From Minisyncoccota bacterium (GTDB lineage: Bacteria; Patescibacteriota; Minisyncoccia; Phycocordibacterales; PALSA-1337), in the NCBI GenBank assembly GCA_041671485.1, contig JBAZBL010000002.1, positions 9,320 through 73,319 of the forward strand: a DNA stretch of 64,000 nucleotides. The letters are read 5' to 3'. Below, one piece after another: positions 1 through 55,280 of the stretch. The notes beneath the pieces were generated by a model. The model saw nothing but the letters and a program-made list of their open reading frames with translations, had not been told where the DNA came from and did not search any database. Each line of letters opens with the position of its first letter. The first letter of the stretch is position 1. The position numbers were made by a program, and so were the translations under genes.

Positions 1-969
1 ACTATGAATTGTAGATGATATTTTGTCTCCTCTTCGAGATTTTTCCATTTTGGTAATGTCTATTTTTTGTGTTTCAAGTATTTCACTAAATAGTTTATAT
101 GCTCTATGATACATTGCTCCTATTTGACGATATTTTGGATTGTCTGATATTTCTACTTTGAATTCTTCTGCCAATTGATTTCTGATAGGAATACTAGAAT
201 CGCATAGATAAGCAATATTTCTGAAAGCAATAAGTTGACTCATTATCTCATCTAATACTATTGACTTGATTGGATGTTTTGCAAGTACATCTCTTGCAAT
301 CTCTTTTATAGATACATTTGGATTTGATTTGATAGCATTGACTAGAGTATCAGCAAAATCAGCAACTGCTTCTCCGTCTGCACCTATAATTACTTTTGCA
401 ATCCACATATTGCGTGTTTTACCTTTATCAGGGAATTCTCCGTATTTTACTGAAGGGGAATACCCTCTGACTATACTATCTCTCAGTGTATCTCCAAGTT
501 TCTTACTAGCATCTTCTGCTTTGCTACAGAAATCAAATGCCAAACCAAATATATTTCTTCGAATATTATCTGGCCTTTCTATATTTGGATCTTCTGGTCC
601 GGCAGCAACAATAAGGTCTACTTTCCTCACAAAGTCATCATATTGAGAAGGTATTATGACTTCTGTACCTTCTCCGAACATATCTCCATTTATAATACTA
701 TGAGTAAATATTGCTTCAGTTATTTTGCCATTTTCTTGTGCCTTAAGTTCTTCCGGACTCATGCGTCTCAACTTCTCTTCGAATAACTGCTTTAGATGAG
801 CAACCTTCTCTAAATCTCTATCTATCTCTTCATTACTAAATCTAGGATCATTCCTGAAACTCTCCAATTTGATGCGCTTGGCCTCCAAGACCTTTATATA
901 ATCCTCAAAAAACTTCTTTATATCTTCGAAGCGATCGGCTCCTGATGTCTGTGGTGCATGTTCTATCAT
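1..969 (-). CDS. Hypothetical protein, N-terminal 323 codons; gene continues beyond the window start
   Basis: Reverse-complement of 967-969 is ATG. An uninterrupted minus-strand frame (MIEHAPQTSGADRFEDIKKFFEDYIKVLEAKRIKLESF...) runs to position 1. It is absent from the ORF track only because no stop lies in the window. No family recognised. Confidence 0.45.
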   Translation of the reverse strand, partial: MIEHAPQTSGADRFEDIKKFFEDYIKVLEAKRIKLESFRNDPRFSNEEIDRDLEKVAHLKQLFEEKLRRMSPEELKAQENGKITEAIFTHSIINGDMFGEGTEVIIPSQYDDFVRKVDLIVAAGPEDPNIERPDNIRRNIFGLAFDFCSKAEDASKKLGDTLRDSIVRGYSPSVKYGEFPDKGKTRNMWIAKVIIGADGEAVADFADTLVNAIKSNPNVSIKEIARDVLAKHPIKSIVLDEIMSQLIAFRNIAYLCDSSIPIRNQLAEEFKVEISDNPKYRQIGAMYHRAYKLFSEILETQKIDITKMEKSRRGDKISSTIHS

Positions 970-1131
970 ATATATTATAAATAATTCAATAGTTTAATAT
1001 TTTTCACTTGTCTATTTTATATCACATATTACTATTCTTCTCAATATATATTAATAACCATTTTCCACAAATTGAAAATCCCCAACCTTTCGGCCGGGGA
1101 ATGAGGATGTCTAATCACTGATTGACGTTGA

Positions 1132-1533
1132 TCAATCAGTGGTCTCAAAATCGAATGGTACAGGTTCTGCTTCAAACGTCTCACCACGGTTCAGAGATAA
1201 GTTATGAAAAACTCTCTCTCCTTTAATGGCATGCTCCTCATCACCTGTGATGGGCTGATGACATTTCTGGCAGATTGAGTCAGGTGATGGTAACAAGCCA
1301 CCCGGTAAATCTCTCTCTGGATCAAATGGTGGTGGATTGGTTTGAACTGATTCACCTTGAAGTCCTGGAATCACTTCGAGCTGTGTTGGATGCTTCATCC
1401 GCCACAGCACTACTTCTTCAATTTCCCACACTTCGGGACTAGACAATTGTCTAGTCCTAAGAACAGTCAGTTTCAAACAACAAAGCAGTTGTTCTGGTGA
1501 CACTCTGGCATATTTCAATTGTGTTTCGGTCAT
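1132..1533 (-). CDS. Small hypothetical protein with a Cys/His cluster (CQKCH...H...H)
   Basis: 133-aa ORF with moderate GC. A 9-bp-arm stem-loop (cactgattg/caatcagtg) overlaps its stop at about 1117-1142. Confidence 0.35.
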   Translation of the reverse strand: MTETQLKYARVSPEQLLCCLKLTVLRTRQLSSPEVWEIEEVVLWRMKHPTQLEVIPGLQGESVQTNPPPFDPERDLPGGLLPSPDSICQKCHQPITGDEEHAIKGERVFHNLSLNRGETFEAEPVPFDFETTD

Positions 1534-1595
1534 AATATTCCTTTCTCCTTTAATAAACTAACATTTCTTGCAAGATTATAATAGGTACAATAACA

Positions 1596-1624
1596 TTGAC
1601 AACATAATCATTGTATGCTTAAAT
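1596..1624 (+). promoter_or_regulatory. Candidate sigma70-like promoter (TTGACA-17-TTAAAT) upstream of the 1705 cassette
   Basis: TTGACA at 1596-1601, 17-nt spacer, TTAAAT at 1619-1624. It sits about 80 nt upstream of the GTG start at 1705, which has an AGGAG SD at 1694-1698. Confidence 0.3.
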
Positions 1625-1704
1625 TAAACAGAATTTCATTTGGCATTAAATGATGCTGAATAATAGTGAACATTGACAATAACCCCAAAACCCAGGAGTA
1701 ATAG

Positions 1705-2940
1705 GTGCAGATAAACTATCCCAGAGAAAGACACGGACTACCACCGGAACATGAAGTGCGAGATATCATTTTGGTCTTATGCCACGAGTGTGGTTGGAAC
1801 CATGATAATGTCAGACTTCAATACATTGGTGGTGATCGACGCAAATATTTCCCCAAACAGGGAATCAAACTTATGCGTGGTTGCCAGTTTACTGTGCAAT
1901 TATATGTAGGTTGCGACAACGAAACGGTTGAGACTCACTTCCAGCTTATAAACGGAAACGGACGAGCGCGTCCGGGTCATGAGCTTTACCAAGAAATGAT
2001 CGGAATCTTCAGCGGCCGAATGATGATCGTCACCGACGAAATGATCCGTGAATTGCGCACTGGCATCAGTGGAAACGTTGTTCGCAGTCAACAACCTGAA
2101 CAACCGACGGTTGTCGTATCTGACGACACTGTATCTGATGGTAGTGTGGACCAAAATGAAATCGTTGACGATGCTTCGTCCACAACTCCAGCACCAAAGT
2201 CATCAGAGCCATCACCGGAGCCACAAGCTCCATTAGCTGATCCGGTACATTACAAAAAGTACTTTGATGATCCCTCCAAACTGCATTTAGGTGTCTGTGC
2301 TCTCGTCGCCATGTGCGACGAAGATACACAAAAACCGTTCAGTTTCGGAGACTTCGAAAAAGTCATCGCCGAATTGGATGTCCCCACGGGTAACATATCG
2401 CCGATGGTGTTCATCAGAGTCTTCACGACAAGAGGATTTGTAATTCGGCTCAACCCGGAAAGCAAACCTTCTCGTTATGCGATCACCGCAGCCGCAGTAG
2501 ACTTTGCGCTCGGTCCGATACCGAATTCTTTGATAAAAACCAAAATGCAAATCGAAGCGGAAGCTAACCGAAAACGAACACCTTCCGCCAAACCGAAAGC
2601 AGACATCCCAAAAACAGACATCAAGCAATCATTGCTTGAACTGAGAGCCAAGGCGGATGAACACAAAGTCCTCGAGGGTAAGTTGACTGCCGTTAAAAAT
2701 CGGTTGGCCAAATTGCAGGAAGTGGACATTACTGCCGAGGAAAAAAACGCCAAGGCAGAAATCACTTCGCACCAAAAGCGAATCGATGACCTCCGTGTGT
2801 TTCTCGATGACCTCGAGAAACGGAAAGGGGAAATACAAGCTACAGAAAAGGAAAGCGAGCACCTGAACAAGGCACTTAGTGATCCTCATCTTCTGCAAGC
2901 ACTCAGTCAACTCGAAGAATTCAAGAAACTGCTGTCCTAA
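1705..2940 (+). CDS. Hypothetical protein with an N-terminal Cys-rich region (CHECGW...C...C) and a C-terminal coiled coil
   Basis: 411-aa ORF with GTG start 6 nt after an AGGAG SD. The C-terminal about 120 aa are K/E/L-rich heptad-like. A rho-independent terminator follows. Higher GC than the genome background. Confidence 0.5.
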   Translation: MQINYPRERHGLPPEHEVRDIILVLCHECGWNHDNVRLQYIGGDRRKYFPKQGIKLMRGCQFTVQLYVGCDNETVETHFQLINGNGRARPGHELYQEMIGIFSGRMMIVTDEMIRELRTGISGNVVRSQQPEQPTVVVSDDTVSDGSVDQNEIVDDASSTTPAPKSSEPSPEPQAPLADPVHYKKYFDDPSKLHLGVCALVAMCDEDTQKPFSFGDFEKVIAELDVPTGNISPMVFIRVFTTRGFVIRLNPESKPSRYAITAAAVDFALGPIPNSLIKTKMQIEAEANRKRTPSAKPKADIPKTDIKQSLLELRAKADEHKVLEGKLTAVKNRLAKLQEVDITAEEKNAKAEITSHQKRIDDLRVFLDDLEKRKGEIQATEKESEHLNKALSDPHLLQALSQLEEFKKLLS

Positions 2941-2966
2941 GTCTTGAATTTGCTGAAAAGAATCAC

Positions 2967-2992
2967 AGGCGCACAAAAGTGCGCCTTTTTTA
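2967..2992 (+). terminator. Rho-independent terminator
   Basis: aggcgcac-aaaa-gtgcgcct stem-loop followed by TTTTTT. Confidence 0.6.
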
Positions 2993-3037
2993 TATTTTTT
3001 CAAAATAATTAAAGATTTTAAGCATAAAAAAGTAGTC

Positions 3038-3066
3038 TTGACATTAAATCAAATATATGTAATATA
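3038..3066 (+). promoter_or_regulatory. Candidate promoter (TTGACA, about 17-nt spacer, TGtAATATA extended -10)
   Basis: TTGACA at 3038-3043 and a TG-extended AT-rich -10 at about 3058-3066. It lies about 45 nt upstream of the ATG at 3114. Confidence 0.35.
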
Positions 3067-3113
3067 TATACAAGATCTTCCACACAACAACAATTGACCA
3101 TTGACAATATGAA

Positions 3114-3782
3114 ATGAAGACCGCAAAAACAATGAAAACTAAGGATTGCATGGCGGATTTCTTTAGGCGTTTCGGTAAATCCGAAGCCCTGATTGAGTTC
3201 GCGGAGGTACAATCCGACACTGAAAGAATGTGGCGCAAACACGGCATTATGCCGACAGGAGAAGTTCTTCTTCGGGTGTGTTATTTTCTGGATCTGATCG
3301 GATACAAAGTTGAAGAGCTTATGCGGGTCCACCCTGACATATTCACGGTTGGACAATGTATAGCTTTCAACCTGATGACTCCACGTATCGTGGAGAGAGC
3401 CATCGGTACGACCGACCGAAAAGCCCTATATCGATATTTTCGAGAAGGCATCGGAGTAACCAGAGAGCGTCTGAATGAATTCAAACTCATTGCAGATTCT
3501 CGTCGGTCTCAACTGACCGAAATGGTAAAACAGAAGCGTCTCGGTTTGAAACAGTTGCTCGGTAATTCACCAAGCCACAGTAACAAACCAGACGATTCAT
3601 TGATAGGCGAATTTGCTGCAGCTTGTTCGAGCGTAAGAACACTAGGAGGGAAACTCTTGGAGGGTCCTGTTGAAAATCGAATACGGATGCGGCAAAAAAT
3701 GGTTGAAGGGCCAGAACCGGCTCTTCATCTGACTTGGGAAACACTGAACAACCTGTTAAGCGAAAAGAAAGGAATCATATGA
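3114..3782 (+). CDS. Hypothetical protein (222 aa), middle gene of the three-gene cassette
   Basis: ORF with no recognisable motifs. Its stop TGA overlaps the downstream ATG (ATGA), indicating translational coupling. Confidence 0.45.
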   Translation: MKTAKTMKTKDCMADFFRRFGKSEALIEFAEVQSDTERMWRKHGIMPTGEVLLRVCYFLDLIGYKVEELMRVHPDIFTVGQCIAFNLMTPRIVERAIGTTDRKALYRYFREGIGVTRERLNEFKLIADSRRSQLTEMVKQKRLGLKQLLGNSPSHSNKPDDSLIGEFAAACSSVRTLGGKLLEGPVENRIRMRQKMVEGPEPALHLTWETLNNLLSEKKGII

Positions 3783-5416
3783 ATGCAATTAATGTTGCAC
3801 TACATCAGGGTAAAGTCATGTATAGGTTGGCGAAAAACTATGCCGATCTATCAGCAGTAATCAAGGAGGTCGTGCAGAATTCTGTCGACTCTTGTGCCAA
3901 ACGAATCGCTATTCAAATAAGTGTGCCACAGCGCACCTTTACTGTGTATGACAATGGTTCGGGGGCTAGCCGTGAGAAAATCACGCAAGCCCTTCAATCC
4001 ATTGGTAATACCCTTAAGGATGTTGGCAAGTATGGGCAGTTTGGACTCGGTCTGATCTCTCCTATTTCCATTGCCCGAGAATTCACCCTGACTTCGTGTC
4101 CGGCACCACGCCGAAGCGATTTCATGGAGTATCGATTCGTAACCGCGACCATCATCAAGCAAAAGCAGGTCTCAATTCCCAGTAGTCCTGTGAGTGGTCT
4201 CGAACACGATCCCAATGGAAAAACTTGGTGGCGCACGAAAGTTAATGTGGGCGGAATCACTAAAGACCGTCGCACCTCGCATCTAGACCCCGCTGAACTG
4301 ACAAGCGATATCGCACTCAAGTTTGGCGATGCCATCAGGGAAAGGCAAATTGACATTACCATCGACATTACCAATGACGATGGACACCAGTCAATCCTCA
4401 AGGTTGAGGCCCCCCAATTCTCCGGAAGAAAGATTGATGTCTTTAAGGAGGAAATGCCCGAGAGCGGCAAGGTAAAGGTTGAGCTCTACATTGCTCCTTT
4501 GGGACGTCGCGGTCGTCAAGGAAAAGTCGTCTTTGGCACAATGAACAACCCATCGCGCCTTTCACCGAAGCAATTCGTTGATTGCACCGTGACATTGCTC
4601 GATCAGCCGGTCGCTAAAGCACTCCTCTCTGGGGTTTTTGAGGGTCAAGTGCTCTGTGAGAAGGTTGCTCTACATGCTGACCGTACCAAATTCGAGGAGA
4701 ACGACGCACTCTTTGTGCTTTGTGAAGTTCTTGGGTTCTGGCATAAGAAGGTCGGTAAGAAAATCATTATTGAGGTGGAAGAACAGGCCTCCGACGATCG
4801 ATTCCAACGAATCGGTGTACAAGTGATGCCATATGCCGAGCTCCTGCTAAAACAGGTGGAGTTCGAATCAGTGGCGAGATTGATCACAGTCGGGTCTGTT
4901 GGTCCTGAACATGTCAAAGTTTCTCGAAAACAGATCATTGGTCAGGATGATGGCACTTCAGTATCAATTGGGGGTAAACCTTTTGAAGAAAAGGAAATAT
5001 GCAAAGGAGGATCTGGCAGTGGTGGTAAAACAATCCCAAAGATAGACCATCCACTTCATAAACCAGGACTCGTCTACGGCCCTCGCGGTCGCAAACGGAC
5101 TGATGTCAGAAGCAGTTCTACAGGTCTCCGGTTTGAACACGTCGAGATGGAAGACTTCAGGGTTCCTTTCGTCTTTGAACCACGGACCGGCATGTTGTCA
5201 TTCAACATCAACAATCCCAACTGGGGATTGTGCCAAGAAAATGACACTTTCCTGTCGGACTATCACATGGCGGTAATCAATACCGCCCTGTCTGCTGAAT
5301 TGTTCAGAGATACGGGTGGAATGATTCACCCCGAAGTGACCAAGTTTGCTCACGAGAATCTGTCTCATCAGGTCTTTGCTATCAGGAACGGCAAAGCCAT
5401 CCAAGTGAAGCACTAA
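3779..5416 (+). CDS. GHKL (Bergerat-fold, HATPase_c/MORC-MutL-Hsp90-like) ATPase with a large uncharacterised C-terminal region
   Basis: N-box E-VVQNSVDS, G1 box DNGSG, G2 box GQFGLGL within the first ~110 aa. A GAAAGGAA SD precedes the ATG at 3779. An alternative in-frame start at 3734 overlaps the upstream gene. Confidence 0.6.
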   Translation: MNAINVALHQGKVMYRLAKNYADLSAVIKEVVQNSVDSCAKRIAIQISVPQRTFTVYDNGSGASREKITQALQSIGNTLKDVGKYGQFGLGLISPISIAREFTLTSCPAPRRSDFMEYRFVTATIIKQKQVSIPSSPVSGLEHDPNGKTWWRTKVNVGGITKDRRTSHLDPAELTSDIALKFGDAIRERQIDITIDITNDDGHQSILKVEAPQFSGRKIDVFKEEMPESGKVKVELYIAPLGRRGRQGKVVFGTMNNPSRLSPKQFVDCTVTLLDQPVAKALLSGVFEGQVLCEKVALHADRTKFEENDALFVLCEVLGFWHKKVGKKIIIEVEEQASDDRFQRIGVQVMPYAELLLKQVEFESVARLITVGSVGPEHVKVSRKQIIGQDDGTSVSIGGKPFEEKEICKGGSGSGGKTIPKIDHPLHKPGLVYGPRGRKRTDVRSSSTGLRFEHVEMEDFRVPFVFEPRTGMLSFNINNPNWGLCQENDTFLSDYHMAVINTALSAELFRDTGGMIHPEVTKFAHENLSHQVFAIRNGKAIQVKH

Positions 5417-5436
5417 AGAACAAATTATGTGTACAC

Positions 5437-5471
5437 ATCACCACGGACATCATGTCTGTGGTGATTTTTTA
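5437..5471 (+). terminator. Rho-independent terminator
   Basis: atcaccacgga...tctgtggtgat stem followed by TTTTTTATT. Confidence 0.55.
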
Positions 5472-5611
5472 TTAAAATATATCTTAACTTCTATATTTCT
5501 TTGCTATTCATTTCGTCGCTGAGTAAAGTTACCTAGCGTGGCGTACTGTGTGGTTTGGTGCGGAGCGATTGATCGTAAGGTCAGTCGCTTTTTATATACA
5601 CCAAAGATTTT

Positions 5612-6259
5612 ATGATACAATTCTCGAACATGATTTATATTTTTCTTGATGAAAGTGGAGATTTGGGATTTGGTGAGCGTTCTACTCGCTGGTTTGTGAT
5701 TGCTACTATTATAACTACAAATTTCAGACCAATAGAGAAAGCTGTGACAAAGATATGGTGTTCGATGTCAAAAAAATATCAGAAACACGGAGAACTTCAC
5801 GCCAATTTTCATAATAGTTCAATACGAAGAAGATTTGTAAAAGCTATATCTAAAATAGAAAATTTAAATATAGCTTATGTGGTAGTAAATAAGCGAAATA
5901 CACCACATAACATAAAATATGAACATGAAAATCTGTATACATATGCGACCTATGTTTTATTGGAGAAGATTCAGTCACTTGGAATAATTACTCATGACAA
6001 TCAAGTGACACTTTGTGCGGATAAAAGATCCACAAATAAGATATTGAACAAGCATTTTACAGAATATATCACTAAATTGACAGAAAAGAATAGAGATGAG
6101 CCAATAAAGGTTGAGTTAATCAATTCGAGTAATAGCAAATCATTACAAGCAGTAGATTTTGTGTCATGGGCAATCTTTAGGAAATACGAAAGAAATGATC
6201 ACGAATTGTATGATTTGATAAGAGAACAGATCTGTAGTGAACAGATTTTATATCAATAA
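5612..6259 (+). CDS. DUF3800 family protein
   Basis: N-terminal IYIFLDESGDLGF motif typical of DUF3800. Very low GC compared with both flanks. Confidence 0.6.
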   Translation: MIQFSNMIYIFLDESGDLGFGERSTRWFVIATIITTNFRPIEKAVTKIWCSMSKKYQKHGELHANFHNSSIRRRFVKAISKIENLNIAYVVVNKRNTPHNIKYEHENLYTYATYVLLEKIQSLGIITHDNQVTLCADKRSTNKILNKHFTEYITKLTEKNRDEPIKVELINSSNSKSLQAVDFVSWAIFRKYERNDHELYDLIREQICSEQILYQ

Positions 6260-6363
6260 TAAATAAGAAAGCCCCTCCACTTTAACGAAGCACCAAGTGC
6301 ATCAACATGGAAGGGTCTTACTCCTTAATGAGAATAATAACAAACAAAAAAATAAATACAATA

Positions 6364-6392
6364 TTGACAATACTTATTAGCTGTGATAGTGT
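6364..6392 (+). promoter_or_regulatory. Candidate promoter (TTGACA-17-TAGTGT)
   Basis: TTGACA at 6364-6369 with a weak -10. Sits just upstream of the ORF starting at 6407. Confidence 0.25.
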
Positions 6393-6406
6393 GATATTGG
6401 ATTAGC

Positions 6407-7072
6407 ATGTTGCTAAAACCCGATCTAAATAACAGATCGTTTGACAACTTTCAACTCATGAGAACATTGACTTTACGTATTCTTGGTACAACACCGTTAA
6501 TTTTACATCGCATTTCCAGGCATGAATTGCGTGAACAGATTGCCTCGGATGCCAGTAAGGGCATACTGTTCGAACAAGAAGCCTTGGAAAATATGAGCAA
6601 AGACGACGACGGTAACCCTGTCGTTCCCGTCTCTTGGCTCTGGGACGCAATCCGCAAAGGTTGCTCCAAGATAACTGTTGACGGAGGCAGTCAATTGAGC
6701 TTCGTCAGATTACAGCAAGTACTTCATCTGCCTAGTGGATCTATTCCGCTCCGCAAAAGGAATCAACATCTGGATAGGGAATGGGAGGTATACACTAGTG
6801 TCCAACATGCTTCACCGGGATCAAAGAAAATGATTACCGTGGTTGCTCCAATGTTTCGGCACTGGATGCTTGAGGGATCAGTGGCCGTTGATGGAAATCA
6901 ATACGATGATTACCTACTTCAGAGAGTTTTCAATGAAGCGGGCAAAGTCGGTATGGGTCTCTTCCATCCACCCAAGAAGCAGTTTGGGAAGTTCACGACT
7001 TTTGTTACGCCAAGCGACGTGCGCCTCTCCCAAGTCAAGTTAGGTGCCGTCCGGTCTAGTCTGGAGCGTTGA
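6407..7072 (+). CDS. Hypothetical protein (221 aa)
   Basis: ORF in a higher-GC segment. No family recognised. Confidence 0.4.
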   Translation: MLLKPDLNNRSFDNFQLMRTLTLRILGTTPLILHRISRHELREQIASDASKGILFEQEALENMSKDDDGNPVVPVSWLWDAIRKGCSKITVDGGSQLSFVRLQQVLHLPSGSIPLRKRNQHLDREWEVYTSVQHASPGSKKMITVVAPMFRHWMLEGSVAVDGNQYDDYLLQRVFNEAGKVGMGLFHPPKKQFGKFTTFVTPSDVRLSQVKLGAVRSSLER

Positions 7073-7124
7073 GATGTTTTTTTGACGCTATTCAGCGCAC
7101 GATCTTCTACAGGACTGTGCGCTT

Positions 7125-8966
7125 TTACTTTCTATCAGAAATCTCTCTCTGTAACTTCTCCAATATTTCCGCGGTTGGTAATTGTCCCACCTGCCCATTG
7201 TCCCTACTTTCCAACGTAACCTTGTTTGCCTCCACATCTTTGTCGCCAATAATTATAAAATAGGGGATTTTTGCTGTTTTCGCATTTCTGACTTTTTTGC
7301 CGAATCCATCATTTGAAATATCGAGTTCGGAGCGAATGAATGAGTCGTGTAATGATTCATGGACTTTTCTAGCAGTATCAAAATGAGTTTCTCCGATTGG
7401 TATGACTTTCACTTGAATAGGTGCAAGCCATAGAGGGAAGTTGCCACCATAATGTTCGATCAAAAATCCGATGAAGCGTTCATGTGTGCCGAGAGGAGCG
7501 CGGTGAATGCAGAGCGGAGTTTTCTTTGTGCCATCTTTATCGGTATATTCAAGATCAAATCTTTTTGGTACAGCAAAGTCAACTTGATTGGTTGCTAGGG
7601 TAAATTCTTTGCCAATAGCAGACCATACTTGTACATCTATCTTTGGTCCATAGAATGCGGCTTCATTGGCTACTTCTACGAAAGGTATTTTGGAATCAAC
7701 TAGTACTTTGCGTACCATATCTTCTGTTTTCTTCCATAATTCTGGCTCATCTACAAACTTTTTGCCAAGCTTCTTTGGATCGTGTGTAGAGAAACGCATT
7801 ATGTATTTGTCTATGCCAAATATCTTGAAATATTTTATATACATATCATTTACAGCCTGGAATTCACTGGCAAACTGTTCTTCTGTGCAATAGATATGTG
7901 CATCATTCATAGAAAGCATACGGACACGCATAAGGCCAAATAGTTCACCAGACTTTTCGTGGCGATAATTTGTGCCATATTCGGCTAAGCGCAAAGGTAG
8001 ATCGCGATAGCTTCTCATTCTAGAAGCAAAGATTTTGTGATGATGTGGACAATTCATGGCCTTGAGATAGTATTTGCCACCTTCATACTCCATAGGAGGG
8101 AACATAGATTCTTCATAATATGGCAAATGACCACTCTTCAGATACATAGAATCTTTGGCTATATGAGGAGTCCTAACCCTCTTATAATTCATCATGAATT
8201 CTGTTTCCTTTGCAAGTTTTTCCAATTCCTCTATCATAGCTGCGCCATTGGGTAACCATAGTGGAAGTCCTGGTCCAACATCATCATCAAATTCAAATAT
8301 ATCCATCTCTTTACCTATCTTGCGATGGTCTCTCTTTTCCGCTTCTTTCATCATGGTCTCATATTCAGATAGCTCTTTTTTATTTTCAAAAGCAAGTCCA
8401 TATATGCGAGTAAGCATTTTGTTTTTCTCATCACCACGCCAATATGCACCAGCTATGCGAGAAAGTTTCCACGAATCGGGCTTTATTTCTTTTGCAGGAT
8501 TTTCGACATGACCACCGCGACAGAGGTCGGTGAATGAAACCGCAACCTCCTCGGCGCGACGAAATGCCTTCGTTGGCTTCGCCAAGTCGCCATTTGTCGC
8601 CGCCTCAACGGTTGCGGTTTCGCTTTTATTTCCAACAGTGTAAAAAGTAATTATTTCTCCCGACTTTTCCAAGTCTTCTATCAATTCTAGTTTATAAGTA
8701 TTATCCTTGAATGAATCTTTAGCCTCCTCTGGACTCACTTCTTTATGCGAAAATGCTTGCCACTTTGGCAAAAGCTCTTTCATCTTTTTCTCTATCTTCG
8801 GCAAATCTTCATCAGTAATTTTCAAATCATCAAAGTCGTAATAAAAACCATTATCAATAGCAGGACCAATAGTGTTTTTTGCTTCTGGATATAGCTCCAA
8901 AACTGCTGCCGCTAGTAGGTGCGCGAGAGTATGTCTTTTCTTTGATAATTCTTCTGAAGGATTCAT
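7125..8966 (-). CDS. thrS: Threonyl-tRNA synthetase, short form lacking N-terminal TGS/editing domains
   Basis: Class II aaRS core plus C-terminal anticodon-binding domain. Strong similarity to ThrRS catalytic region (e.g. LAEYGTNYRHEKSGELFGLMRVR, HRAPLGTHERFIGFLIEHYGG, IIIGDKDVE). Confidence 0.88.
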   Translation of the reverse strand: MNPSEELSKKRHTLAHLLAAAVLELYPEAKNTIGPAIDNGFYYDFDDLKITDEDLPKIEKKMKELLPKWQAFSHKEVSPEEAKDSFKDNTYKLELIEDLEKSGEIITFYTVGNKSETATVEAATNGDLAKPTKAFRRAEEVAVSFTDLCRGGHVENPAKEIKPDSWKLSRIAGAYWRGDEKNKMLTRIYGLAFENKKELSEYETMMKEAEKRDHRKIGKEMDIFEFDDDVGPGLPLWLPNGAAMIEELEKLAKETEFMMNYKRVRTPHIAKDSMYLKSGHLPYYEESMFPPMEYEGGKYYLKAMNCPHHHKIFASRMRSYRDLPLRLAEYGTNYRHEKSGELFGLMRVRMLSMNDAHIYCTEEQFASEFQAVNDMYIKYFKIFGIDKYIMRFSTHDPKKLGKKFVDEPELWKKTEDMVRKVLVDSKIPFVEVANEAAFYGPKIDVQVWSAIGKEFTLATNQVDFAVPKRFDLEYTDKDGTKKTPLCIHRAPLGTHERFIGFLIEHYGGNFPLWLAPIQVKVIPIGETHFDTARKVHESLHDSFIRSELDISNDGFGKKVRNAKTAKIPYFIIIGDKDVEANKVTLESRDNGQVGQLPTAEILEKLQREISDRK

Positions 8967-9011
8967 GAGTAAAATATAACATTTTATTGTTTTCCTTGCT
9001 ATATAGTCCTT

Positions 9012-10242: not shown

Positions 10243-10393
10243 TCTGTTTTTTTGTCGAGATTCCTCCTAATCCATTATTTAGAAAGAACCATTACTAGTC
10301 AAAGACGATATCATACTTTTTGAATATTAGCAAGCGAAAACTATAAGGATTAATATTGATGAGCTCAAGGTAATTCTTCGATTATTTTAGATT

Positions 10394-10589
10394 TTAAGAA
10401 AACAATATGTTATTTCATGTCCGAGGACTGTCTGAACGAGTATAAATTTCTTGGTAAAATGCGTAGGTTGTGGGAATTGCTACGAAACTGAGGCATGTAA
10501 TGCCGAAGTATCGAGCAATTCAATAGCATTTTACCTAGAAATTTACCGAGTGAGTTCCGCAGGACATGAAATAACATATTGTTTTCTTA
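10394..10589. repeat. Long imperfect palindrome / MITE-like element (~196 nt)
   Basis: Perfect 29-nt terminal inverted repeats (ttaagaaaacaatatgttatttcatgtcc at 10394-10422; its reverse complement at 10561-10589). Internal nested inverted repeats include ggtaaaatgc/gcattttacc. Confidence 0.6.
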
Positions 10590-10681
10590 AAGCATAGATT
10601 TTATCATTTCTTCAGCGAAATTTTATCAAAATTTTAGGAGAATTTTATCAGGATTTTATCTCTCTCTGATACGATGCTCGT

Positions 10682-11818
10682 ATGATTACGATAAAAGACT
10701 TGTCACTACAGAAGATAACATCTTTTCCAATGATGCCAGGAACAGCGTTTGAAGCTATAGATGATATTCTATGGTATGCAACTTCTATGAAAGCATCAGA
10801 TATCCATATAGATCCACGCATTTCTGACATACTAATAAGATTGCGAATAGATGGTCATATAGAAGAAGTAGGAATTTGGGAAAAAAGATTGCATGAAGAA
10901 ATTATTGCCAGATTGAAGATATTGGCTTGTGTAAGGACAGATCTTCATGCAGTACCACAAGACGGTAGATGGAAAGCATCAATTCGAAATGAAGAATTCA
11001 ATATACGAGTTTCATTTATGCTCACTTATCATGGTGAAAATGCTGTTATACGTCTACTACCAGCACGAGTGCCAAAACATATTTCTTTTTCCAAATTGGG
11101 ATTTACACCAGACCATGTAAGGATGATAGACCATGCTCTGAAGCGACCAAATGGCCTCATCCTTGCTACTGGTCCAACAGGTTGTGGCAAAACCACCACT
11201 CTCCATACTTGTCTATCATTCAAGGCCAGAGAACCACTATCTATCATCACTCTCGAAGATCCAGTCGAATATGAGATAGATGGTGTGAGACAAGTACATA
11301 TCAAACACAATCTAGGCATCACTTTTCCTATAGGACTTCGTGCTGCATTACGCCAAGATCCAGATGTCATCATGGTTGGAGAGATAAGAGACAATGAAAC
11401 TGCTAGAGTTGCAATCCATACAGCTCTCACTGGACATTTGGTATTTTCTACGCTTCATACAAATTCCGCACTCGAATCCATATTGCGTTTGGTTGATATG
11501 AATGTCGATAACTATCTTCTCGCTTCTACTTTGCGATTGGTCATTTCACAAAGATTGGTCAGAAATATCTGTCATGAATGTTCGCTAGCAGGATGTAGCA
11601 GTTGTAGAGGAACTGGATATGTAGGTAGATCTGTCATAGCCGAAGTGTGTGAGATTGATTCAGGATTGTCTCAATTGATTGCAAATAAAGAAGCACCGTC
11701 TGTGATTCGAGACTATGTGATATCAAAAGGATTTAGACCAATAAGTGAAGATGGAGCCGAAAAAGTCGAATGGGGAGTAACTACAAAAGAAGAGATTCTG
11801 CGCGTCTTGGCCGAATAA
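10682..11818 (+). CDS. pilB: Type IV pilus / type II secretion assembly ATPase (PilB/GspE family)
   Basis: Walker A GPTGCGKTTT, Asp box ITLEDPVEY, VGEIRD, His box TLHTN, and the tetracysteine motif CHEC...CSSC. Confidence 0.85.
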   Translation: MITIKDLSLQKITSFPMMPGTAFEAIDDILWYATSMKASDIHIDPRISDILIRLRIDGHIEEVGIWEKRLHEEIIARLKILACVRTDLHAVPQDGRWKASIRNEEFNIRVSFMLTYHGENAVIRLLPARVPKHISFSKLGFTPDHVRMIDHALKRPNGLILATGPTGCGKTTTLHTCLSFKAREPLSIITLEDPVEYEIDGVRQVHIKHNLGITFPIGLRAALRQDPDVIMVGEIRDNETARVAIHTALTGHLVFSTLHTNSALESILRLVDMNVDNYLLASTLRLVISQRLVRNICHECSLAGCSSCRGTGYVGRSVIAEVCEIDSGLSQLIANKEAPSVIRDYVISKGFRPISEDGAEKVEWGVTTKEEILRVLAE

Positions 11819-23447: not shown

Positions 23448-24347
23448 ATGATTACTCTCTCAAACGGCCATGCTTTCAAATACATGGTCGCTAGTGGTGC
23501 TCTAGCATTTGATGGCAAAGGCTGGTTTTGGGAACGACCACTGGTGTGGCTTGGTCTTATCAAGCCCGAACTTTTCACTGTCGTCATAAAATCTCTAACA
23601 CGTAACCCGCGTGCCGGAAATCTACGCTGGTGGAAACCATGGAATTGTGTTCGTCTGATTCCTGGTGGTTCGGTCAACAAAGTTGGTCTTACCAATCCTG
23701 GAATCGAATGGTGGTGCCGAGGAGTCGGTCCCAAACTCGATTTTAAGAAGTTCCCTACAGCCGGATCAATTTTCGGTGATGAAAAGGAACTGGTGGAAAT
23801 GGCGGAGATGCTCAATCGCTTCAGTCTCGTCGCGCTTGAAGTCAATGTCTCATGCCCGAATACCGGCCATGCAATCGAGCAGGCAGAGATGGTGGTAAAC
23901 AGCATGAAGGCGGTCAAACATGTTTCGTGTCATCCTGTCATCGTCAAAGTCTCGGCTGATCAAGACTATCTGATCATTGCACGCGAACTTGTTGGAGTCG
24001 CAGAAGCGGTCTCTCTCAACAGCGTGCCGTGGAAAACAGTCTTCACCAATGGCGAGCAAACGCCTTTGGCTAAGCTCGAGAAACAAGTCGGTGGTGGAGG
24101 CGGAGGCGTCTCTGGCAAACCAGCACAGAAACACAACTGGGCGGCAGTCGAGAGCTTATCCAAACAAGGATCGCTCCCCATGATCGGTCCAAGCGTCATG
24201 GAATTCGAAGACATGAAAAAGCTCAGGAGACTCGGCGCAAAAGCAATCAGCTTCGGTGCGATTCATCTTCCAACAAAAGGGAAACCATGGACCCTATTTA
24301 CAAATCCATGCAAGCCAACATTGTTCATCGAAAAGGAAAACATGTGA
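23448..24347 (+). CDS. pyrD: Dihydroorotate dehydrogenase (class 1-like)
   Basis: ASGAL.FDG.G N-terminus, NPGIE, EVNVSCPNT active-site region. About 300 aa. GC much higher than the genome. Confidence 0.7.
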   Translation: MITLSNGHAFKYMVASGALAFDGKGWFWERPLVWLGLIKPELFTVVIKSLTRNPRAGNLRWWKPWNCVRLIPGGSVNKVGLTNPGIEWWCRGVGPKLDFKKFPTAGSIFGDEKELVEMAEMLNRFSLVALEVNVSCPNTGHAIEQAEMVVNSMKAVKHVSCHPVIVKVSADQDYLIIARELVGVAEAVSLNSVPWKTVFTNGEQTPLAKLEKQVGGGGGGVSGKPAQKHNWAAVESLSKQGSLPMIGPSVMEFEDMKKLRRLGAKAISFGAIHLPTKGKPWTLFTNPCKPTLFIEKENM

Positions 24348-25426: not shown

Positions 25427-25449
25427 AATCAAAAACAAGAACCTTAACC

Positions 25450-25485
25450 CAGCCCTGACATTAATTTGTCAGGGCTGATTTTTTG
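25450..25485 (+). terminator. Rho-independent terminator
   Basis: cagccctgaca-ttaatt-tgtcagggctg followed by TTTTTT. Confidence 0.6.
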
Positions 25486-25518
25486 TGTGCTTTACATTTT
25501 AATAAAATTATAGTAATG

Positions 25519-25598
25519 TTCCGCTTAGAGTCGACTTAATCGACAAAGGCTAAAGTGCTGCCTTAAAGCATACAACTGAACATTGAAAGGAAAATACC
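25519..25598 (+). promoter_or_regulatory. Conserved leader, copy 2 (upstream of putative pyrE)
   Basis: See 23351-23447. Confidence 0.45.
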
Positions 25599-26315: not shown

Positions 26316-26345
26316 CTCTCAAACAAAACGAAAGGAAAACAGAAC

Positions 26346-47550: not shown

Positions 47551-47770
47551 GACGATTCTTTCTGATCTACCAATACTCCAACACACGTCAGGGTAATAGC
47601 AGACCTTTTGTTGCGCCTAGGTTTTACCCTTGGCTTTGTTTATCTGTGAAATTATTAGAATGCTGTACTTCGTTATCATTTCGATGTCAACGAACGAGCA
47701 GTCTAGAGTATATATAGCATGTTTTGGAGGGGAAGTAAAGGGGGTAAGAAGTACATTCAATCTTTTATTT

Positions 47771-55208: not shown

Positions 55209-55280
55209 GGCCCTATCGTCTAACGGTTAGGACATTGCCTTCTCAAGGCAGTAATCCGGGTTCGATTCCCGGTAGGGTCA
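55209..55280 (+). tRNA. tRNA-Glu (anticodon CUC)
   Basis: Hand-folded cloverleaf: acceptor ggcccta/tagggtc (one G-U pair), D arm gtc..gac, anticodon stem ttgcc/ggcag with loop ttCTCaa (U33, A37), T arm ccggg-ttcgatt-cccgg, discriminator A. No encoded CCA. Confidence 0.65.

What the first reader, a model, noticed from the sequence alone, without database searches (positions are those of the whole stretch)
1..7080. Mosaic accessory island between the window edge and thrS, with a nested low-GC DUF3800 insertion
From 1 to about 7080 no housekeeping gene is seen; every ORF is hypothetical or defence-associated (DUF3800). The very AT-rich DUF3800 gene (5612-6259) sits between two GC-richer segments (the GHKL cassette and the ORF at 6407-7072), consistent with successive insertions, as is typical of defence islands. 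The partial minus-strand gene at 1-969 and the Cys/His small ORF at 1132-1533 may belong to the same island.
Basis: partly seen in the sequence, partly recalled or inferred. Interest (0 to 1): 0.55.

Follow-up and report, generated by a model that had tools for sequence, protein, structure and literature searches.

The report
VIPR RNA-guided locus beside GHKL cassette
The stretch next to the threonyl-tRNA synthetase gene of this tiny-celled (Patescibacteria) bacterium is an add-on region made of two unrelated modules: a recently described CRISPR-like RNA-guided system (VIPR), which had not been recognised here, and an uncharacterised three-gene ATPase cassette that keeps turning up beside the same housekeeping gene.

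Summary
Window 970-7124 has no housekeeping gene, is absent from 80 related thrS loci, and is compositionally mixed. The interpretation needs correcting.

- Composition: DUF3800 (GC3 0.27) is host-like (window median 0.31). Its GC-rich neighbours are the outliers.
- VIPR locus: the "ORF at 6407-7072" (true start 6458) is a Vipr-family stand-alone RAMP. It has a Cas7-like fold, and the only significant PDB sequence hit is SUSP1 Vipr (E 0.0017).
- Guide RNAs: two vrRNA-like genes flank the DUF3800-vipr pair, at 5514-5594 and 7000-7092. Each has 10-13 YNNNG pentamers followed by a hairpin that covaries. A covariance model built only from other loci hits the window at exactly these two sites (E 5e-7 and 3e-6).
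- Extent: 5514-7092 is therefore one VIPR locus, with DUF3800 in the accessory-gene position. Whether DUF3800 is the accessory nuclease or a later insert is open.
- GHKL cassette (1705-5416): a conserved three-gene module of a coiled-coil protein, an HTH protein and a MutL/Hsp90-type ATPase. Every member with a taxon name is from Patescibacteria. It occurs in 11 different contexts, 4 of them beside thrS. Its function is unknown.
- Gene at 1-969: a conserved thrS neighbour, not part of the insertion.

No integrase, tRNA or flanking repeats were found.

The parts
1..969 (-). 3' part... strictly the first 323 codons of a 348-aa gene of unknown function (orf348). It is a conserved neighbour of thrS and lies outside the insertion.
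   Evidence: The full gene is in L001 17998-19044. A 43%-identical homologue directly follows thrS in L006. No Pfam, NCBIfam, PHROG, PADLOC or PDB hit. GC3 is 0.23, host-like.
1132..1533 (-). orf133, an orphan small gene with its own promoter-like site (1602-1575) and terminator (1100-1079). It is the left-most gene of the inserted stretch.
   Evidence: No domain hit. No homologue in any cassette or vipr locus. Terminator and promoter scan.
1705..2940 (+). Cassette gene A (411 aa). It has an N-terminal domain, a disordered linker, a mid domain read by eye as possibly winged-helix-like, and a C-terminal coiled coil. It has its own terminator at 2967-2986.
   Evidence: Homologues precede B and C in 10 of 11 contexts at 20-69% identity. 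Only coiled-coil hits in PDB. Terminator.
3132..3782 (+). Cassette gene B (216 aa), an HTH-type DNA-binding protein. A promoter-like site lies at 3038-3065. Its stop codon overlaps the start of C (ATGA).
   Evidence: phrog_1763 HTH hit at 3e-3. Weak P22 C2 repressor match. Present in all 11 contexts at 26-64% identity.
3779..5416 (+). Cassette gene C (545 aa), a GHL-type ATPase. It has a Bergerat fold plus transducer domain, a long helix (309-357), a conserved disordered loop (373-446) and a C-terminal domain. Terminator at 5437-5465.
   Evidence: HATPase_c_3 at 3e-12. MutL, HtpG and MORC2 hits with the family profile. AF2 model has pLDDT 79. Foldseek finds Hsp90, the GyrB 43K fragment and the PMS1 N-terminal domain, E 1e-14 to 1e-12. 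Motifs E30/N34/D37, D58xGxG62 and G86-G91 are invariant.
5514..5594 (+). vrRNA-1 candidate. Ten pentamers, 9 matching YNNNG (5514-5563), then the tail hairpin AGCGAUUGAUC-GUAA-GGUCAGUCGCU (5564-5589) and a U-run.
   Evidence: Periodicity scan. Detector and tail. Covariance model built without window sequences scores 37.8 bits, E 5.5e-7 at 5549-5592. Fold z-score is -3.0.
5612..6259 (+). DUF3800 gene (215 aa), an RNase H2-like putative nuclease. It is either the accessory gene (vap) of the VIPR locus or an independent insert.
   Evidence: PF12686 at 1.8e-17. phrog_9243 at 4e-18. The N-terminal DE motif (FLDESGD) and C-terminal QxxD motif (LQAVD) can be read in the translation. RNase H2 similarity and retron type VII association are from PMC7736814. 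GC3 z is -0.4.
6458..7072 (+). vipr gene (204 aa from M18 of the 6407 ORF). It encodes a stand-alone minimal Cas7-like RAMP of the Vipr family.
   Evidence: Family alignment of 33 proteins. The profile's top PDB hit is 36pp_D 'SUSP1 Vipr protein', E 0.0017, collinear at both ends, with H17 conserved. AF2 pLDDT 86, pTM 0.80. Foldseek hits Cas7, Csm3, Cas7-11 and Csf2 at E 2e-6 to 1e-4. Best viral matches are ~200-aa stand-alone RAMPs, TM about 0.6. phrog_4652 at 6e-9.
7000..7092 (+). vrRNA-2 candidate. Thirteen pentamers, 11 matching YNNNG (7000-7064, inside the 3' end of vipr), then the tail hairpin AGCGUUGAGA-UGUUU-UUUUGACGCU (7065-7089).
   Evidence: Covariance model scores 34.4 bits, E 3.4e-6 at 7050-7092. 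It sits at the same position, the 3' end of vipr, as in L104.
7125..8966 (-). thrS, the housekeeping right-hand boundary of the insertion.
   Evidence: tRNA-synt_2b, HGTP_anticodon and tRNA_SAD domains. 72-82% identical to Paceibacteria relatives.

Best explanation
Window 970-7124 is an accessory stretch in the variable 3' flank of thrS of a Candidatus Paceibacterota (Patescibacteria) genome. It holds two independent modules plus an orphan gene.

Module 1 (5514-7092) is a VIPR locus: vrRNA-1, DUF3800, vipr, vrRNA-2. By analogy with the characterised SUSP1 system, the mechanism would run as follows. Vipr protomers would polymerise along the 5-nt repeats of each ~80-90-nt vrRNA, one protomer per repeat. 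They would sequester the conserved G and Y and present the three variable bases of each repeat for gapped pairing with double-stranded DNA of a competing phage or mobile element. Binding would silence that element. The structured 3' hairpin caps the guide. DUF3800, an RNase H-like protein with intact acidic motifs, sits where VIPR loci carry their accessory gene. It may add target cleavage.

Module 2 (1705-5416) is a three-gene cassette specific to Patescibacteria. It is transcribed as A alone, then B and C translationally coupled. The HTH protein B would bring the ATP-driven dimerising GHL clamp C to DNA, with the coiled-coil protein A as scaffold or sensor. Its biological role is unknown. 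Conflict or defence is the leading guess.

Shown here: gene content, folds, the repeat and tail architecture, covariation, and absence from relatives. Inferred: RNA expression, RNP assembly, targeting, any role of DUF3800 in VIPR, and everything about how the cassette acts.
For: Accessory status:
- None of the six genes appears in 80 related thrS loci.
- thrS abuts the orf348 homologue in L006, and the orf377 homologue in L008, L002 and L010.

Vipr membership:
- The profile of 33 family members has SUSP1 Vipr as its only significant PDB hit (E 0.0017). The alignment is collinear at the N-terminal strand (H17 kept) and the G-loop.
- The confident model (pLDDT 86) matches Cas7-type RAMPs and ~200-aa viral stand-alone RAMPs.
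- No CRISPR array or cas gene is present.

vrRNAs:
- 30 elements lie in the four kinds of loci that encode this protein. All are on the gene's strand.
- Each has 8-15 units. Position 1 is Y, positions 2-4 carry 0.01-0.03 bits, and position 5 is G in 89% of units. Spacing is about 100 nt.
- The tail hairpin pairs in 96% of cells against 70% in shuffles. Eight of 11 pairs show compensatory changes.
- The detector finds 0 elements in 3.1 Mb of control sequence.
- Model R1, built without the window, hits only 5549-5592 and 7050-7092. The next best hit has E 0.43.
- These features match the published description: 9-16 pentamer repeats, a YNNNG variant, a structured tail, ~100-nt RNAs, and nuclease or helicase accessory genes.

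Module independence:
- Cassette loci lack vipr and DUF3800.
- vipr loci lack the cassette.
- In L094, L095 and L097 the closest cassette (74% identical) abuts thrS with only a shared terminator between them.

Cassette:
- It is conserved in 11 contexts.
- It has a GHL fold with intact ATP-binding motifs.
- The family has at least 171 clusters at 50% identity with a uniform architecture.
Against: - Sequence similarity to a characterised Vipr is weak (21 bits). Two of its G-contacting residues (R138, D177) are not conserved.
- The canonical YNNGG repeat reaches only 3 units.
- No target of either vrRNA was found.
- No expression data exist.
- DUF3800 is not the neighbour of vipr in the other loci. 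Those carry a PD-(D/E)XK nuclease in L104 and a DinG-like helicase in L108 and L109. DUF3800 occurs on its own in a Gordonia phage immunity region.
- vrRNA-2 overlaps coding sequence, so part of its periodicity could be constrained by the protein.
- The cassette is flanked by housekeeping genes elsewhere and gave no specific PADLOC hit (only a weak GHKL-domain match to TmtA, E 2e-4). A defence role is therefore a guess.
Confidence: 0.78

Rival explanations
1. DUF3800 is an independent single-gene defence or 'moron' element that landed inside a pre-existing VIPR locus. It is not an accessory of that locus. The locus would then be vrRNA-1 / [insert] / vipr / vrRNA-2, close to the first reader's 'nested insertion'.
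For: - Other loci of this Vipr clade pair the gene with a PD-(D/E)XK nuclease or a DinG-like helicase, never with DUF3800.
- The GC3 of DUF3800 (0.27) differs from that of vipr (0.48).
- DUF3800 stands alone after the immunity repressor of Gordonia phage Kenna and serves as a retron type VII partner.
- vipr has a promoter-like TTGACA box of its own upstream (sequence read).
Against: - The DUF3800 start codon lies 17-22 nt after the vrRNA-1 tail, and no promoter-like site lies between them.
- VIPR accessory genes are reported to be swapped between types and to include nucleases.
- DUF3800 genes are known to be accompanied by at least 11 different structured RNAs.
Confidence: 0.45
2. The 6458-7072 protein is a leftover Cas7 from a decayed CRISPR-Cas system (type III, IV or VII), and the pentamer tracts are unrelated sequence.
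For: Foldseek's best solved matches are Cas7, Csm3 and Csf2. L108 and L109 pair the gene with a DinG-like helicase, as type IV CRISPR does.
Against: - No CRISPR repeats or other cas genes occur in the window or in the homologous loci.
- The family is tightly conserved at 50-72% identity at ~190-200 aa, so it is not decaying.
- The only significant PDB sequence hit is Vipr.
- The pentamer-plus-hairpin elements co-occur with the gene in every locus and nowhere in 3.1 Mb of controls.
Confidence: 0.05
3. The GHKL cassette is not a recent insertion. It is an old, vertically inherited neighbour of thrS in this clade that has been lost or moved in many lineages. It may have a housekeeping-like role on DNA, such as repair or chromosome organisation, rather than defence.
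For: - It lies beside thrS in 4 of 11 contexts, including two relatives with thrS 70-72% identical.
- It lies beside dnaG and rpoD in two distant members.
- Its neighbours are always information-processing genes, and there is never an integrase.
- In the other loci its GC excess is small, +1 to +5 points.
- It has a MutL/Hsp90-type fold.
Against: - It is absent from the thrS neighbourhood of L002, L003, L006, L008 and L010.
- The window's cassette is closest (64-74% identical) to that of a host whose thrS is only 45-54% identical. It is only 24-56% identical to the cassettes of hosts whose thrS is 70-72% identical.
- In the window its GC3 is about 2 robust sd above the host.
- A truncated remnant exists in L096.
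Confidence: 0.25
4. The YNNNG periodicity is a chance or compositional artefact, and there is no guide RNA.
For: - The unit is loose, with only two constrained positions.
- Two 7/7 tracts occur in 1.56 Mb of control loci.
- One of 200 block shuffles of the window reaches the observed score.
Against: - Requiring the tract plus the AGYR...YGCU hairpin gives 0 hits in 3.1 Mb of controls, against 2, 1, 19 and 8 in the vipr loci.
- All elements are on the vipr strand.
- The hairpin covaries, with 0 of 500 shuffles reaching the observed score.
- The independent covariance model gives E-values of 5e-7 and 3e-6.
Confidence: 0.03

Closest known systems
VIPR (Viral Interference Programmable Repeat) systems: Vipr RAMP plus vrRNA plus vap (bioRxiv 10.64898/2026.04.26.720920 and 10.64898/2026.04.26.720927)
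   Same: - A stand-alone ~200-aa minimal RAMP with a G-loop.
- No CRISPR array and no cas genes.
- Flanking ~80-100-nt RNA genes made of 8-15 tandem pentamers with hypervariable inner bases, followed by a structured 3' tail.
- One RNA gene upstream and one downstream of the protein genes.
- An accessory gene slot occupied by a nuclease or a helicase in relatives.
   Different: - The repeat is YNNNG (one conserved G and three variable bases), not YNNGG. The paper mentions such variants but does not characterise them.
- The host is a chromosome of a Patescibacteria cell, not a phage, and no relatives were found in IMG/VR.
- The gene in the accessory position is DUF3800, which the paper's main text does not name. 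Its figures and supplementary tables were not available to me.
- SUSP1 residues R138 and D177 are not conserved.
- vrRNA-2 overlaps the end of the vipr ORF.
- The pairing rule and the targets are unknown.
Cas7 backbone subunits of class 1 CRISPR-Cas (Csm3 in type III-A, Cas7 in type VII, Csf2 in type IV)
   Same: An RRM-based RAMP fold, at Foldseek probability 1.00 and TM about 0.5. The mode of action is expected to be one protomer per short RNA period. Some relatives (L108, L109) are linked to a DinG-like helicase, as in type IV.
   Different: There are no CRISPR repeats, no Cas5, Cas6 or large subunit, and no adaptation genes. The RNA has a 5-nt rather than a 6-nt period and is genomically hard-wired.
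GHL ATPases: MutL N-terminal domain, Hsp90/HtpG, GyrB 43K fragment, MORC
   Same: A Bergerat ATP-binding fold with motifs I-III intact. It is followed by a transducer-like domain and a long helix.
   Different: - The C-terminal half (residues 300-545) has no detectable relative outside the family itself.
- There is no MutS partner, no Toprim or topoisomerase A subunit, and no MutL endonuclease motif was found.
- It is always encoded with an HTH protein and usually with a coiled-coil protein.
- It is restricted to Patescibacteria as far as names are available.
DUF3800 (PF12686) as the retron type VII partner, and the DUF3800-associated RNA motifs
   Same: The same Pfam domain with the DE and QxxD motifs. 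It sits next to a structured non-coding RNA that ends in a terminator-like hairpin. Weinberg et al. 2017 reported this arrangement for 11 motifs.
   Different: No reverse transcriptase is present. None of the Rfam DUF3800 motifs matches. Here the RNA has the vrRNA architecture.
CapK/CapS regulators of immune operons (PMC13373217)
   Same: A GHKL-domain protein plus a DNA-binding partner, encoded immediately upstream of a conflict locus in this window.
   Different: - CapK is an HTH-STAS-GHKL anti-sigma-type kinase and CapS is STAS-wHTH.
- The cassette has no STAS domain and has a MutL/Hsp90-type ATPase with a transducer domain.
- In 10 of 11 contexts it is followed by housekeeping genes.
Rejected on these grounds.

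Membership tests
VIPR system | Vipr protein: a stand-alone minimal RAMP (RRM core, G-loop, thumb) outside any CRISPR context | tested here: met
   AF2 model has pLDDT 86 and pTM 0.80. Foldseek hits Cas7-type RAMPs at E 2e-6 to 1e-4 and ~200-aa viral stand-alone RAMPs at TM about 0.6. A conserved G-rich loop GIGLFHPPKKQFGQF is present. No cas genes or CRISPR repeats.
VIPR system | Sequence homology to an experimentally characterised Vipr (SUSP1) | tested here: met
   The family profile has 36pp_D as its top and only significant hit among 177,635 PDB sequences. E is 0.0017 at 21 bits. The alignment is collinear at the N-terminus and G-loop, and H17 is conserved. The match is weak, and R138 and D177 are not conserved.
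VIPR system | vrRNA: about 9-16 tandem pentanucleotide repeats with conserved and hypervariable positions, followed by a structured invariant 3' tail of about 100 nt | tested here: met
   The window has two elements of 10 and 13 units. Across homologous loci there are 30 elements of 8-15 units. Positions 1 and 5 are conserved and positions 2-4 are random. The tail hairpin covaries. The independent covariance model gives E 5.5e-7 and 3.4e-6.
VIPR system | Canonical GGY/NN (YNNGG) repeat | tested here: not met
   At most 3 consecutive YNNGG units (5549-5563). The repeat is YNNNG, which the paper lists as an alternative consensus. This makes the locus a variant type, not the characterised type II.
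VIPR system | An accessory gene (vap) encoding a DNA-binding protein, nuclease or helicase | tested here: inconclusive
   DUF3800 (RNase H-like) occupies the slot. Relatives instead carry PD-(D/E)XK (L104) or a DinG-like helicase (L108, L109). No second locus with DUF3800 next to vipr could be fetched.
VIPR system | vrRNA expression, Vipr-vrRNA RNP formation, and gapped DNA targeting of mobile elements | not testable with these tools
   No target was found locally or in IMG/VR with exact patterns. The pairing rule for YNNNG repeats is unknown.
GHL (MutL/Hsp90/GyrB/MORC) ATPases | Bergerat fold with motif I (ExxxNxxD), motif II (DxGxG) and a G-rich motif III | tested here: met
   E30, N34, D37, D58, G60, G62 and G86-G91 are invariant in 38 sequences. 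Pfam HATPase_c_3 at 3e-12. MutL at 1.6e-8.
GHL (MutL/Hsp90/GyrB/MORC) ATPases | A transducer (ribosomal S5 domain 2-like) domain after the ATPase | tested here: met
   Foldseek alignments of 360-400 columns to Hsp90, the GyrB 43K fragment and the PMS1 N-terminal domain, E 1e-14 to 5e-12.
MutL mismatch-repair proteins | A C-terminal dimerisation/endonuclease domain and a MutS partner | tested here: not met
   The profile matches MutL only over residues 29-122. The C-terminal half finds only its own family. No mutS is adjacent in any of the 11 contexts.
CapK/CapS regulator pair | HTH-STAS-GHKL kinase plus STAS-wHTH repressor upstream of an immune operon | tested here: not met
   No STAS domain in A, B or C. 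The ATPase is MutL/Hsp90-type. The downstream genes are housekeeping in 10 of 11 contexts.
Integrative genomic island / prophage | An integrase or recombinase, a tRNA or other att site, and flanking direct repeats | tested here: not met
   No integrase domain. The only tRNA is at 55209. No flanking repeats beyond chance.
DUF3800 (PF12686) | The Pfam domain with an N-terminal DE motif and a C-terminal QxxD motif | tested here: met
   Full-length match 1-149/149 at 1.8e-17. FLDESGD and LQAVD can be read in the translation. The motif definition is from PMC7736814.

The most novel reading that the evidence does not exclude
DUF3800 is a previously unlisted nuclease accessory of VIPR. The Vipr-vrRNA filament finds the DNA and the RNase H-like DUF3800 cuts the RNA-DNA hybrid or the displaced strand. 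This would give a CRISPR-like interference system in ultra-small Patescibacteria. By extension, some of the 11 orphan 'DUF3800 RNA motifs' (and the drum and skipping-rope RNAs) described in 2017 would be guide or partner RNAs of related systems. Separately, the GHKL three-gene cassette could be a new conflict or mobile module with a preference for the neighbourhood of thrS and other aminoacyl-tRNA synthetase genes.
Probability: 0.2. Interest if true: 0.8.

Novelty: new variant of a known kind. Interest (0 to 1): 0.68.

Why it matters
VIPR was described only in 2026 preprints, as a mainly phage-borne RNA-guided DNA-binding system proposed to predate CRISPR.

This locus shows a complete-looking VIPR of the little-studied YNNNG-repeat type fixed in the chromosome of a Patescibacteria cell, a lineage with very small genomes. 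NCBI annotates the gene as 'hypothetical protein'.

The work here supplies 30 natural guide-like RNAs and a covariance model for the clade. It also notes residue changes in the G-recognition pocket that parallel the change in the repeat. Together these make the pairing code of this variant directly testable.

The position of DUF3800 offers a concrete hypothesis for a domain whose association with many structured RNAs has been unexplained since 2017.

The GHKL cassette is a sizeable uncharacterised family, with at least 171 clusters at 50% identity. Its recurrence beside thrS is odd and deserves a systematic look.

Tried and rejected
- Rfam at gathering and permissive thresholds found nothing on the window region, including none of the DUF3800 motifs. 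Across the vipr loci it found only a sub-threshold skipping-rope match in L108.
- Canonical YNNGG scans reached at most 3 units.
- IMG/VR scans with the GHKL, orf221 and DUF3800 proteins and with the Vipr alignment found no relatives.
- A phage GenBank search with orf221 found none. The same search with DUF3800 found only Gordonia phages, where the gene follows the immunity repressor and no RAMP is nearby.
- The vrRNA target search gave nothing.
  - 30 vrRNAs under 3 skip rules against 3.1 Mb of held sequence scored at control level.
  - An exact 21-base gapped pattern in IMG/VR gave 0 hits.
  - An 18-mer contiguous pattern gave 2 hits that do not extend, which is chance.
- CapK/CapS as a model for genes B and C was rejected because there is no STAS domain and the GHKL class differs.
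- The PADLOC hits to LmuB (coiled coil) and TmtA (GHKL motif only) are too weak and too partial to count.
- PDB profile searches for A and B found only coiled-coil noise and a marginal HTH match.
It was redone with 23 sequences.

Full report
**Source and gene map**

The window is part of an 89-kb metagenome contig, ERZ27249449:k141_382806. The same proteins are deposited for two Candidatus Paceibacterota MAGs as MFA6404959-65, all named hypothetical, ATP-binding or DUF3800. The nearest thrS genes (65-82% identical) come from MAGs mostly labelled Paceibacterota or other Patescibacteria lineages.

Genes in 1-9000 are listed below.

| Coordinates | Strand | Gene |
|---|---|---|
| 1-969 | - | orf348 (the full 348 aa continue beyond the window edge) |
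| 1132-1533 | - | orf133 |
| 1705-2940 | + | gene A, 411 aa |
| 3132-3782 | + | gene B, 216 aa |
| 3779-5416 | + | gene C, GHKL ATPase, 545 aa |
| 5612-6259 | + | DUF3800 |
| 6407/6458-7072 | + | ORF identified below as vipr |
| 7125-8966 | - | thrS |

**Observation check**

The compositional contrast is real: A, B and C have GC 0.46-0.48, DUF3800 has 0.31, and the last ORF has 0.47.

The baseline changes how this should be read. Over 58 long ORFs of the window the median GC3 is 0.307, with a robust sd of 0.076. DUF3800 has z = -0.4 and thrS +0.6. A, B, C and the last ORF have z = +2.1, +1.8, +2.4 and +2.2. The "very AT-rich" gene therefore looks like the host, and the flanks are what look foreign.

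Several other GC-rich patches occur in the window (23-27 kb, 41-44 kb, 46-50 kb). None is rRNA.

**Synteny**

I fetched 80 thrS loci from one genome per species. None encodes orf133, A, B, C, DUF3800 or the last ORF.

- In L006 (thrS 82% identical over the portion on that short contig), thrS is followed after about 30-60 bp by a 43%-identical homologue of orf348.
- In L008 thrS directly meets the homologue of the PKD-like gene that lies just beyond the window edge.
- L002 has a protein-kinase-like gene in the same gap, and L010 has small ORFs there.

The thrS 3' flank is thus a variable spot in this clade. The stretch specific to this genome is window about 970-7124, and orf348 lies outside it. 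No integrase, tRNA or flanking repeat marks the borders.

**The GHKL cassette is one module**

The GHKL protein has about 40 full-length relatives in the word-indexed search. Every one with a taxon name is Patescibacteria. An exhaustive search with its C-terminal half finds 269 clusters at 50% identity (171 at E <= 1e-10). The full-length hits are about 530-630 aa and carry the module at the same position; shorter hits look like fragments. The one additional named member is Parcubacteria.

Context look-ups and a metagenome scan gave 11 distinct neighbourhoods. In 10 of them the order is A, B, C. The most distant member (31% identical) has only B and C.

Transcription signals in the window point to A being transcribed alone, and to B and C being translationally coupled (with sequence read directly):

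- divergent promoter-like sites at 1575-1625
- a terminator after A (2967-2986)
- a promoter-like site before B (3038-3065)
- the B stop overlapping the C start (ATGA)
- a strong terminator after C (5437-5465)

Protein C:
- The ATP-binding motifs are invariant.
- The family profile matches MutL, HtpG and MORC2 only over the Bergerat fold.
- The AlphaFold model (pLDDT 79) aligns over 360-400 columns with Hsp90, the GyrB 43K fragment and the PMS1 N-terminal domain. That corresponds to the ATPase plus a transducer domain.
- A long helix, a conserved but disordered basic loop and a C-terminal domain without outside relatives follow.

Protein B has a weak HTH signal. Protein A shows only a coiled coil to the databases. 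Its alignment shows a conserved N-terminal domain and a conserved mid domain, which I read by eye as winged-helix-like (inference). PADLOC gives only a weak GHKL-domain match to TmtA (E 2e-4) and nothing specific. The CapK/CapS regulator model was considered and rejected, because there is no STAS domain, the GHKL class differs, and the downstream genes are housekeeping in 10 of 11 contexts.

**Cassette neighbours and history**

- thrS: window; L094/95/97 and the remnant L096; L082/L099; L092/93
- pheS and pheT: L082, L103
- dnaG and rpoD: L085, L090
- dnaE: L100
- ftsK and recA: L083
- groESL and secG: L087
- surface proteins: L101

In L094, L095 and L097 the cassette most like the window's (C 74%, B 64% identical) ends 58 bp from the stop of a convergent thrS. 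Only a shared terminator lies between them. This is the window's geometry without DUF3800 and the last ORF.

The gene identities disagree with each other. That thrS is only 45-54% identical to the window's. The relatives with thrS 70-72% identical (L082, L092) carry the cassette on the other side of thrS, at only 53-56% (C), 30-38% (B) and 24-27% (A) identity. L096 keeps only a truncated A against thrS. In the other loci the cassette is 1-5 GC points above its flanks. In the window it is 7.6 points above.

I read this as an accessory module that is gained, lost and probably exchanged between Patescibacteria. Why it recurs beside thrS is unexplained. I did not test its function. A DNA-directed, ATP-driven clamp recruited by an HTH partner is the mechanism its parts suggest. 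A role in conflict is the leading but unproven guess.

**The last ORF is a Vipr**

Pfam and NCBIfam are silent on it, and PHROGs gives a full-length hit to phrog_4652 of unknown function. Its 37 relatives (50-72% identical) start at the ORF's M18 and are about 180-205 aa. They end in an invariant G-rich loop, GIGLFHPPKKQFGQF.

- The single sequence gave a marginal PDB hit to "SUSP1 Vipr protein".
- With the family profile this becomes the top and only significant hit (E 0.0017). It is collinear at the first strand (MRTLNLRLVGTTPLLLH against MKLLNIKITGTRPFLSH) and at the G-loop, in proteins of the same length.
- The AlphaFold model (pLDDT 86, pTM 0.80) matches Cas7-type RAMPs in the PDB: type VII Cas7, Csm3, Cas7-11 and Csf2, at E 2e-6 to 1e-4.
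- It matches ~200-aa stand-alone RAMPs of viruses better, at TM 0.58-0.63.

Two 2026 preprints describe VIPR systems. Their features are:
- a minimal RAMP (Vipr)
- ~100-nt vrRNAs of 9-16 YNNGG repeats, or related consensuses including YNNNG, with a structured 3' tail
- an accessory gene (vap) that is a DNA binder, nuclease or helicase

**Guide-RNA-like genes**

Canonical YNNGG arrays are absent, reaching at most 3 units. A YNNNG scan found two tracts in the window, at 5514-5563 and 7030-7064. One of 200 block shuffles of the window reaches their score. The same scan found one tract at the 3' end of the homologous gene in L104, and many on the gene's strand in the long gene-free flanks of L108 and L109.

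Adding the requirement of a following hairpin gives 30 elements: window 2, L104 1, L108 19, L109 8. It gives none in 3.1 Mb of control sequence counting both strands.

- Each element has 8-15 units.
- Position 1 is T or C. Positions 2-4 carry 0.01-0.03 bits. Position 5 is G in 89% of units.
- The last unit ends in GG in 26 of 30 elements.
- Elements in arrays are about 90-105 nt apart.

The tail is a hairpin with an invariant AGC...GCU base. On the 30-sequence alignment, 96.3% of cells pair, against 70% in shuffles and at most 53% with slid partners. Eight of 11 pairs show changes on both sides, and 0 of 500 shuffles reach the covariation score.

A covariance model built only from L104, L108 and L109 was searched over the whole window with filters off. 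It hits 5549-5592 (37.8 bits, E 5.5e-7) and 7050-7092 (34.4 bits, E 3.4e-6). The next best hit has E 0.43. No Rfam family matches these RNAs.

I therefore call 5514-5594 vrRNA-1 and 7000-7092 vrRNA-2. The stretch 5514-7092 is a VIPR locus of the YNNNG type.

In the alignment to SUSP1 Vipr, H17 (which contacts G1) is kept, W178 becomes F, and R138 and D177 become A and L. This would fit the loss of one conserved G from the repeat. That is inference only.

**DUF3800**

The gene carries the DE and QxxD motifs. It begins 17-22 nt after the vrRNA-1 tail, with no promoter-like site in between. It occupies the slot of the accessory gene.

Against a functional link:
- The other loci of this clade carry a PD-(D/E)XK nuclease (L104) or a DinG-like helicase (L108, L109) instead.
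- DUF3800 has the host's composition, unlike vipr.
- In Gordonia phage Kenna a DUF3800 gene sits alone after the immunity repressor.

For a link:
- VIPR accessory genes are reported to vary between types and to include nucleases.
- DUF3800 genes are known to be accompanied by many different structured RNAs.

I leave this open, at roughly even odds.

**Targets**

None was found.
- Exact-pattern scans of IMG/VR gave nothing beyond chance.

These negatives are weak, because the pairing rule is unknown and the collection scans allow no mismatch.

**Verdict**

The finding is real and more interesting than proposed. The region is an accessory, mosaic stretch. Its right half is a coherent VIPR locus rather than two unrelated inserts. 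Its left half is a conserved cassette of unknown function specific to Patescibacteria. The leftmost gene does not belong to the insertion.

The VIPR part is a member of a kind described in 2026, and differs in its repeat, its host and its neighbouring gene. The cassette is uncharacterised.

Noticed in passing
window 23448-27086: A strongly GC-rich block (GC3 0.50-0.70, z 2.5-5.2 against the window). It contains a dihydroorotate-dehydrogenase-like gene (23448-24347) and OMP decarboxylase (26346-27086). These are pyrimidine synthesis genes that look acquired in this low-GC genome.
   Followed up: partly
window 41618-43765 (-), 46561-47586 (-), 49461-50003 (-): Further GC3 outliers (0.52-0.65). 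The 715-aa ORF at 41618-43765 and its 340-aa neighbour at 40345-41367 have no Pfam hit. They may be additional acquired segments.
   Followed up: partly
window 10393-10422 / 10562-10591: A perfect 30-nt inverted repeat, with a nested 95%-complementary 20-nt inverted repeat (10443-10462 / 10526-10545), in the intergenic region upstream of the PilB/T2SSE-like gene (10682-11818).
   Followed up: no
L108 8817-8884 (-): A sub-threshold match to the skipping-rope RNA (RF02924, 30.1 bits against a gathering score of 36.7, E 0.0034). It lies 2.2 kb downstream of a vipr gene. Weinberg et al. 2017 linked the skipping-rope, drum and DUF3800 RNAs.
   Followed up: no
L108 1823-2846 and 4816-5957; L109 1283-1763, 3808-4368 and 5188-5273: Large arrays of 19 and 8 vrRNA-like elements, spaced about 100 nt apart. 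They flank a DinG-like helicase and a vipr gene in two other Patescibacteria contigs, an architecture that resembles type IV CRISPR.
   Followed up: partly
L096 1623-2393: A truncated copy of cassette gene A (the first ~213 aa, 64% identical) abuts thrS, with B and C missing. This is a decayed cassette in a relative of the L094 organism.
   Followed up: partly
window 7000-7072: The vipr ORF reads through the vrRNA-2 repeat tract. This gives a 20-25-aa C-terminal extension that is shared by P0049-P0052 but absent from most family members. It may be dual coding or a by-product.
   Followed up: no
cassette loci L082, L092, L094-97, L103 and the window: The three-gene GHKL cassette lies beside thrS in 4 of 11 contexts and beside pheS or pheT in 2. 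The cassette and thrS identities disagree: 74% against 45-54% in one pair, 53-56% against 70-72% in another. This is unexplained.
   Followed up: partly
L001 3196-3682 and 19057-21842 (beyond the window edge): A HicB/HicA toxin-antitoxin pair lies on the far side of thrS. Beyond window position 1 lie a 58-aa gene, a PKD-like surface protein, RNase HII and a RhuM-family gene. RNase HII is on the opposite side of thrS in relatives, which points to a local rearrangement.
   Followed up: no
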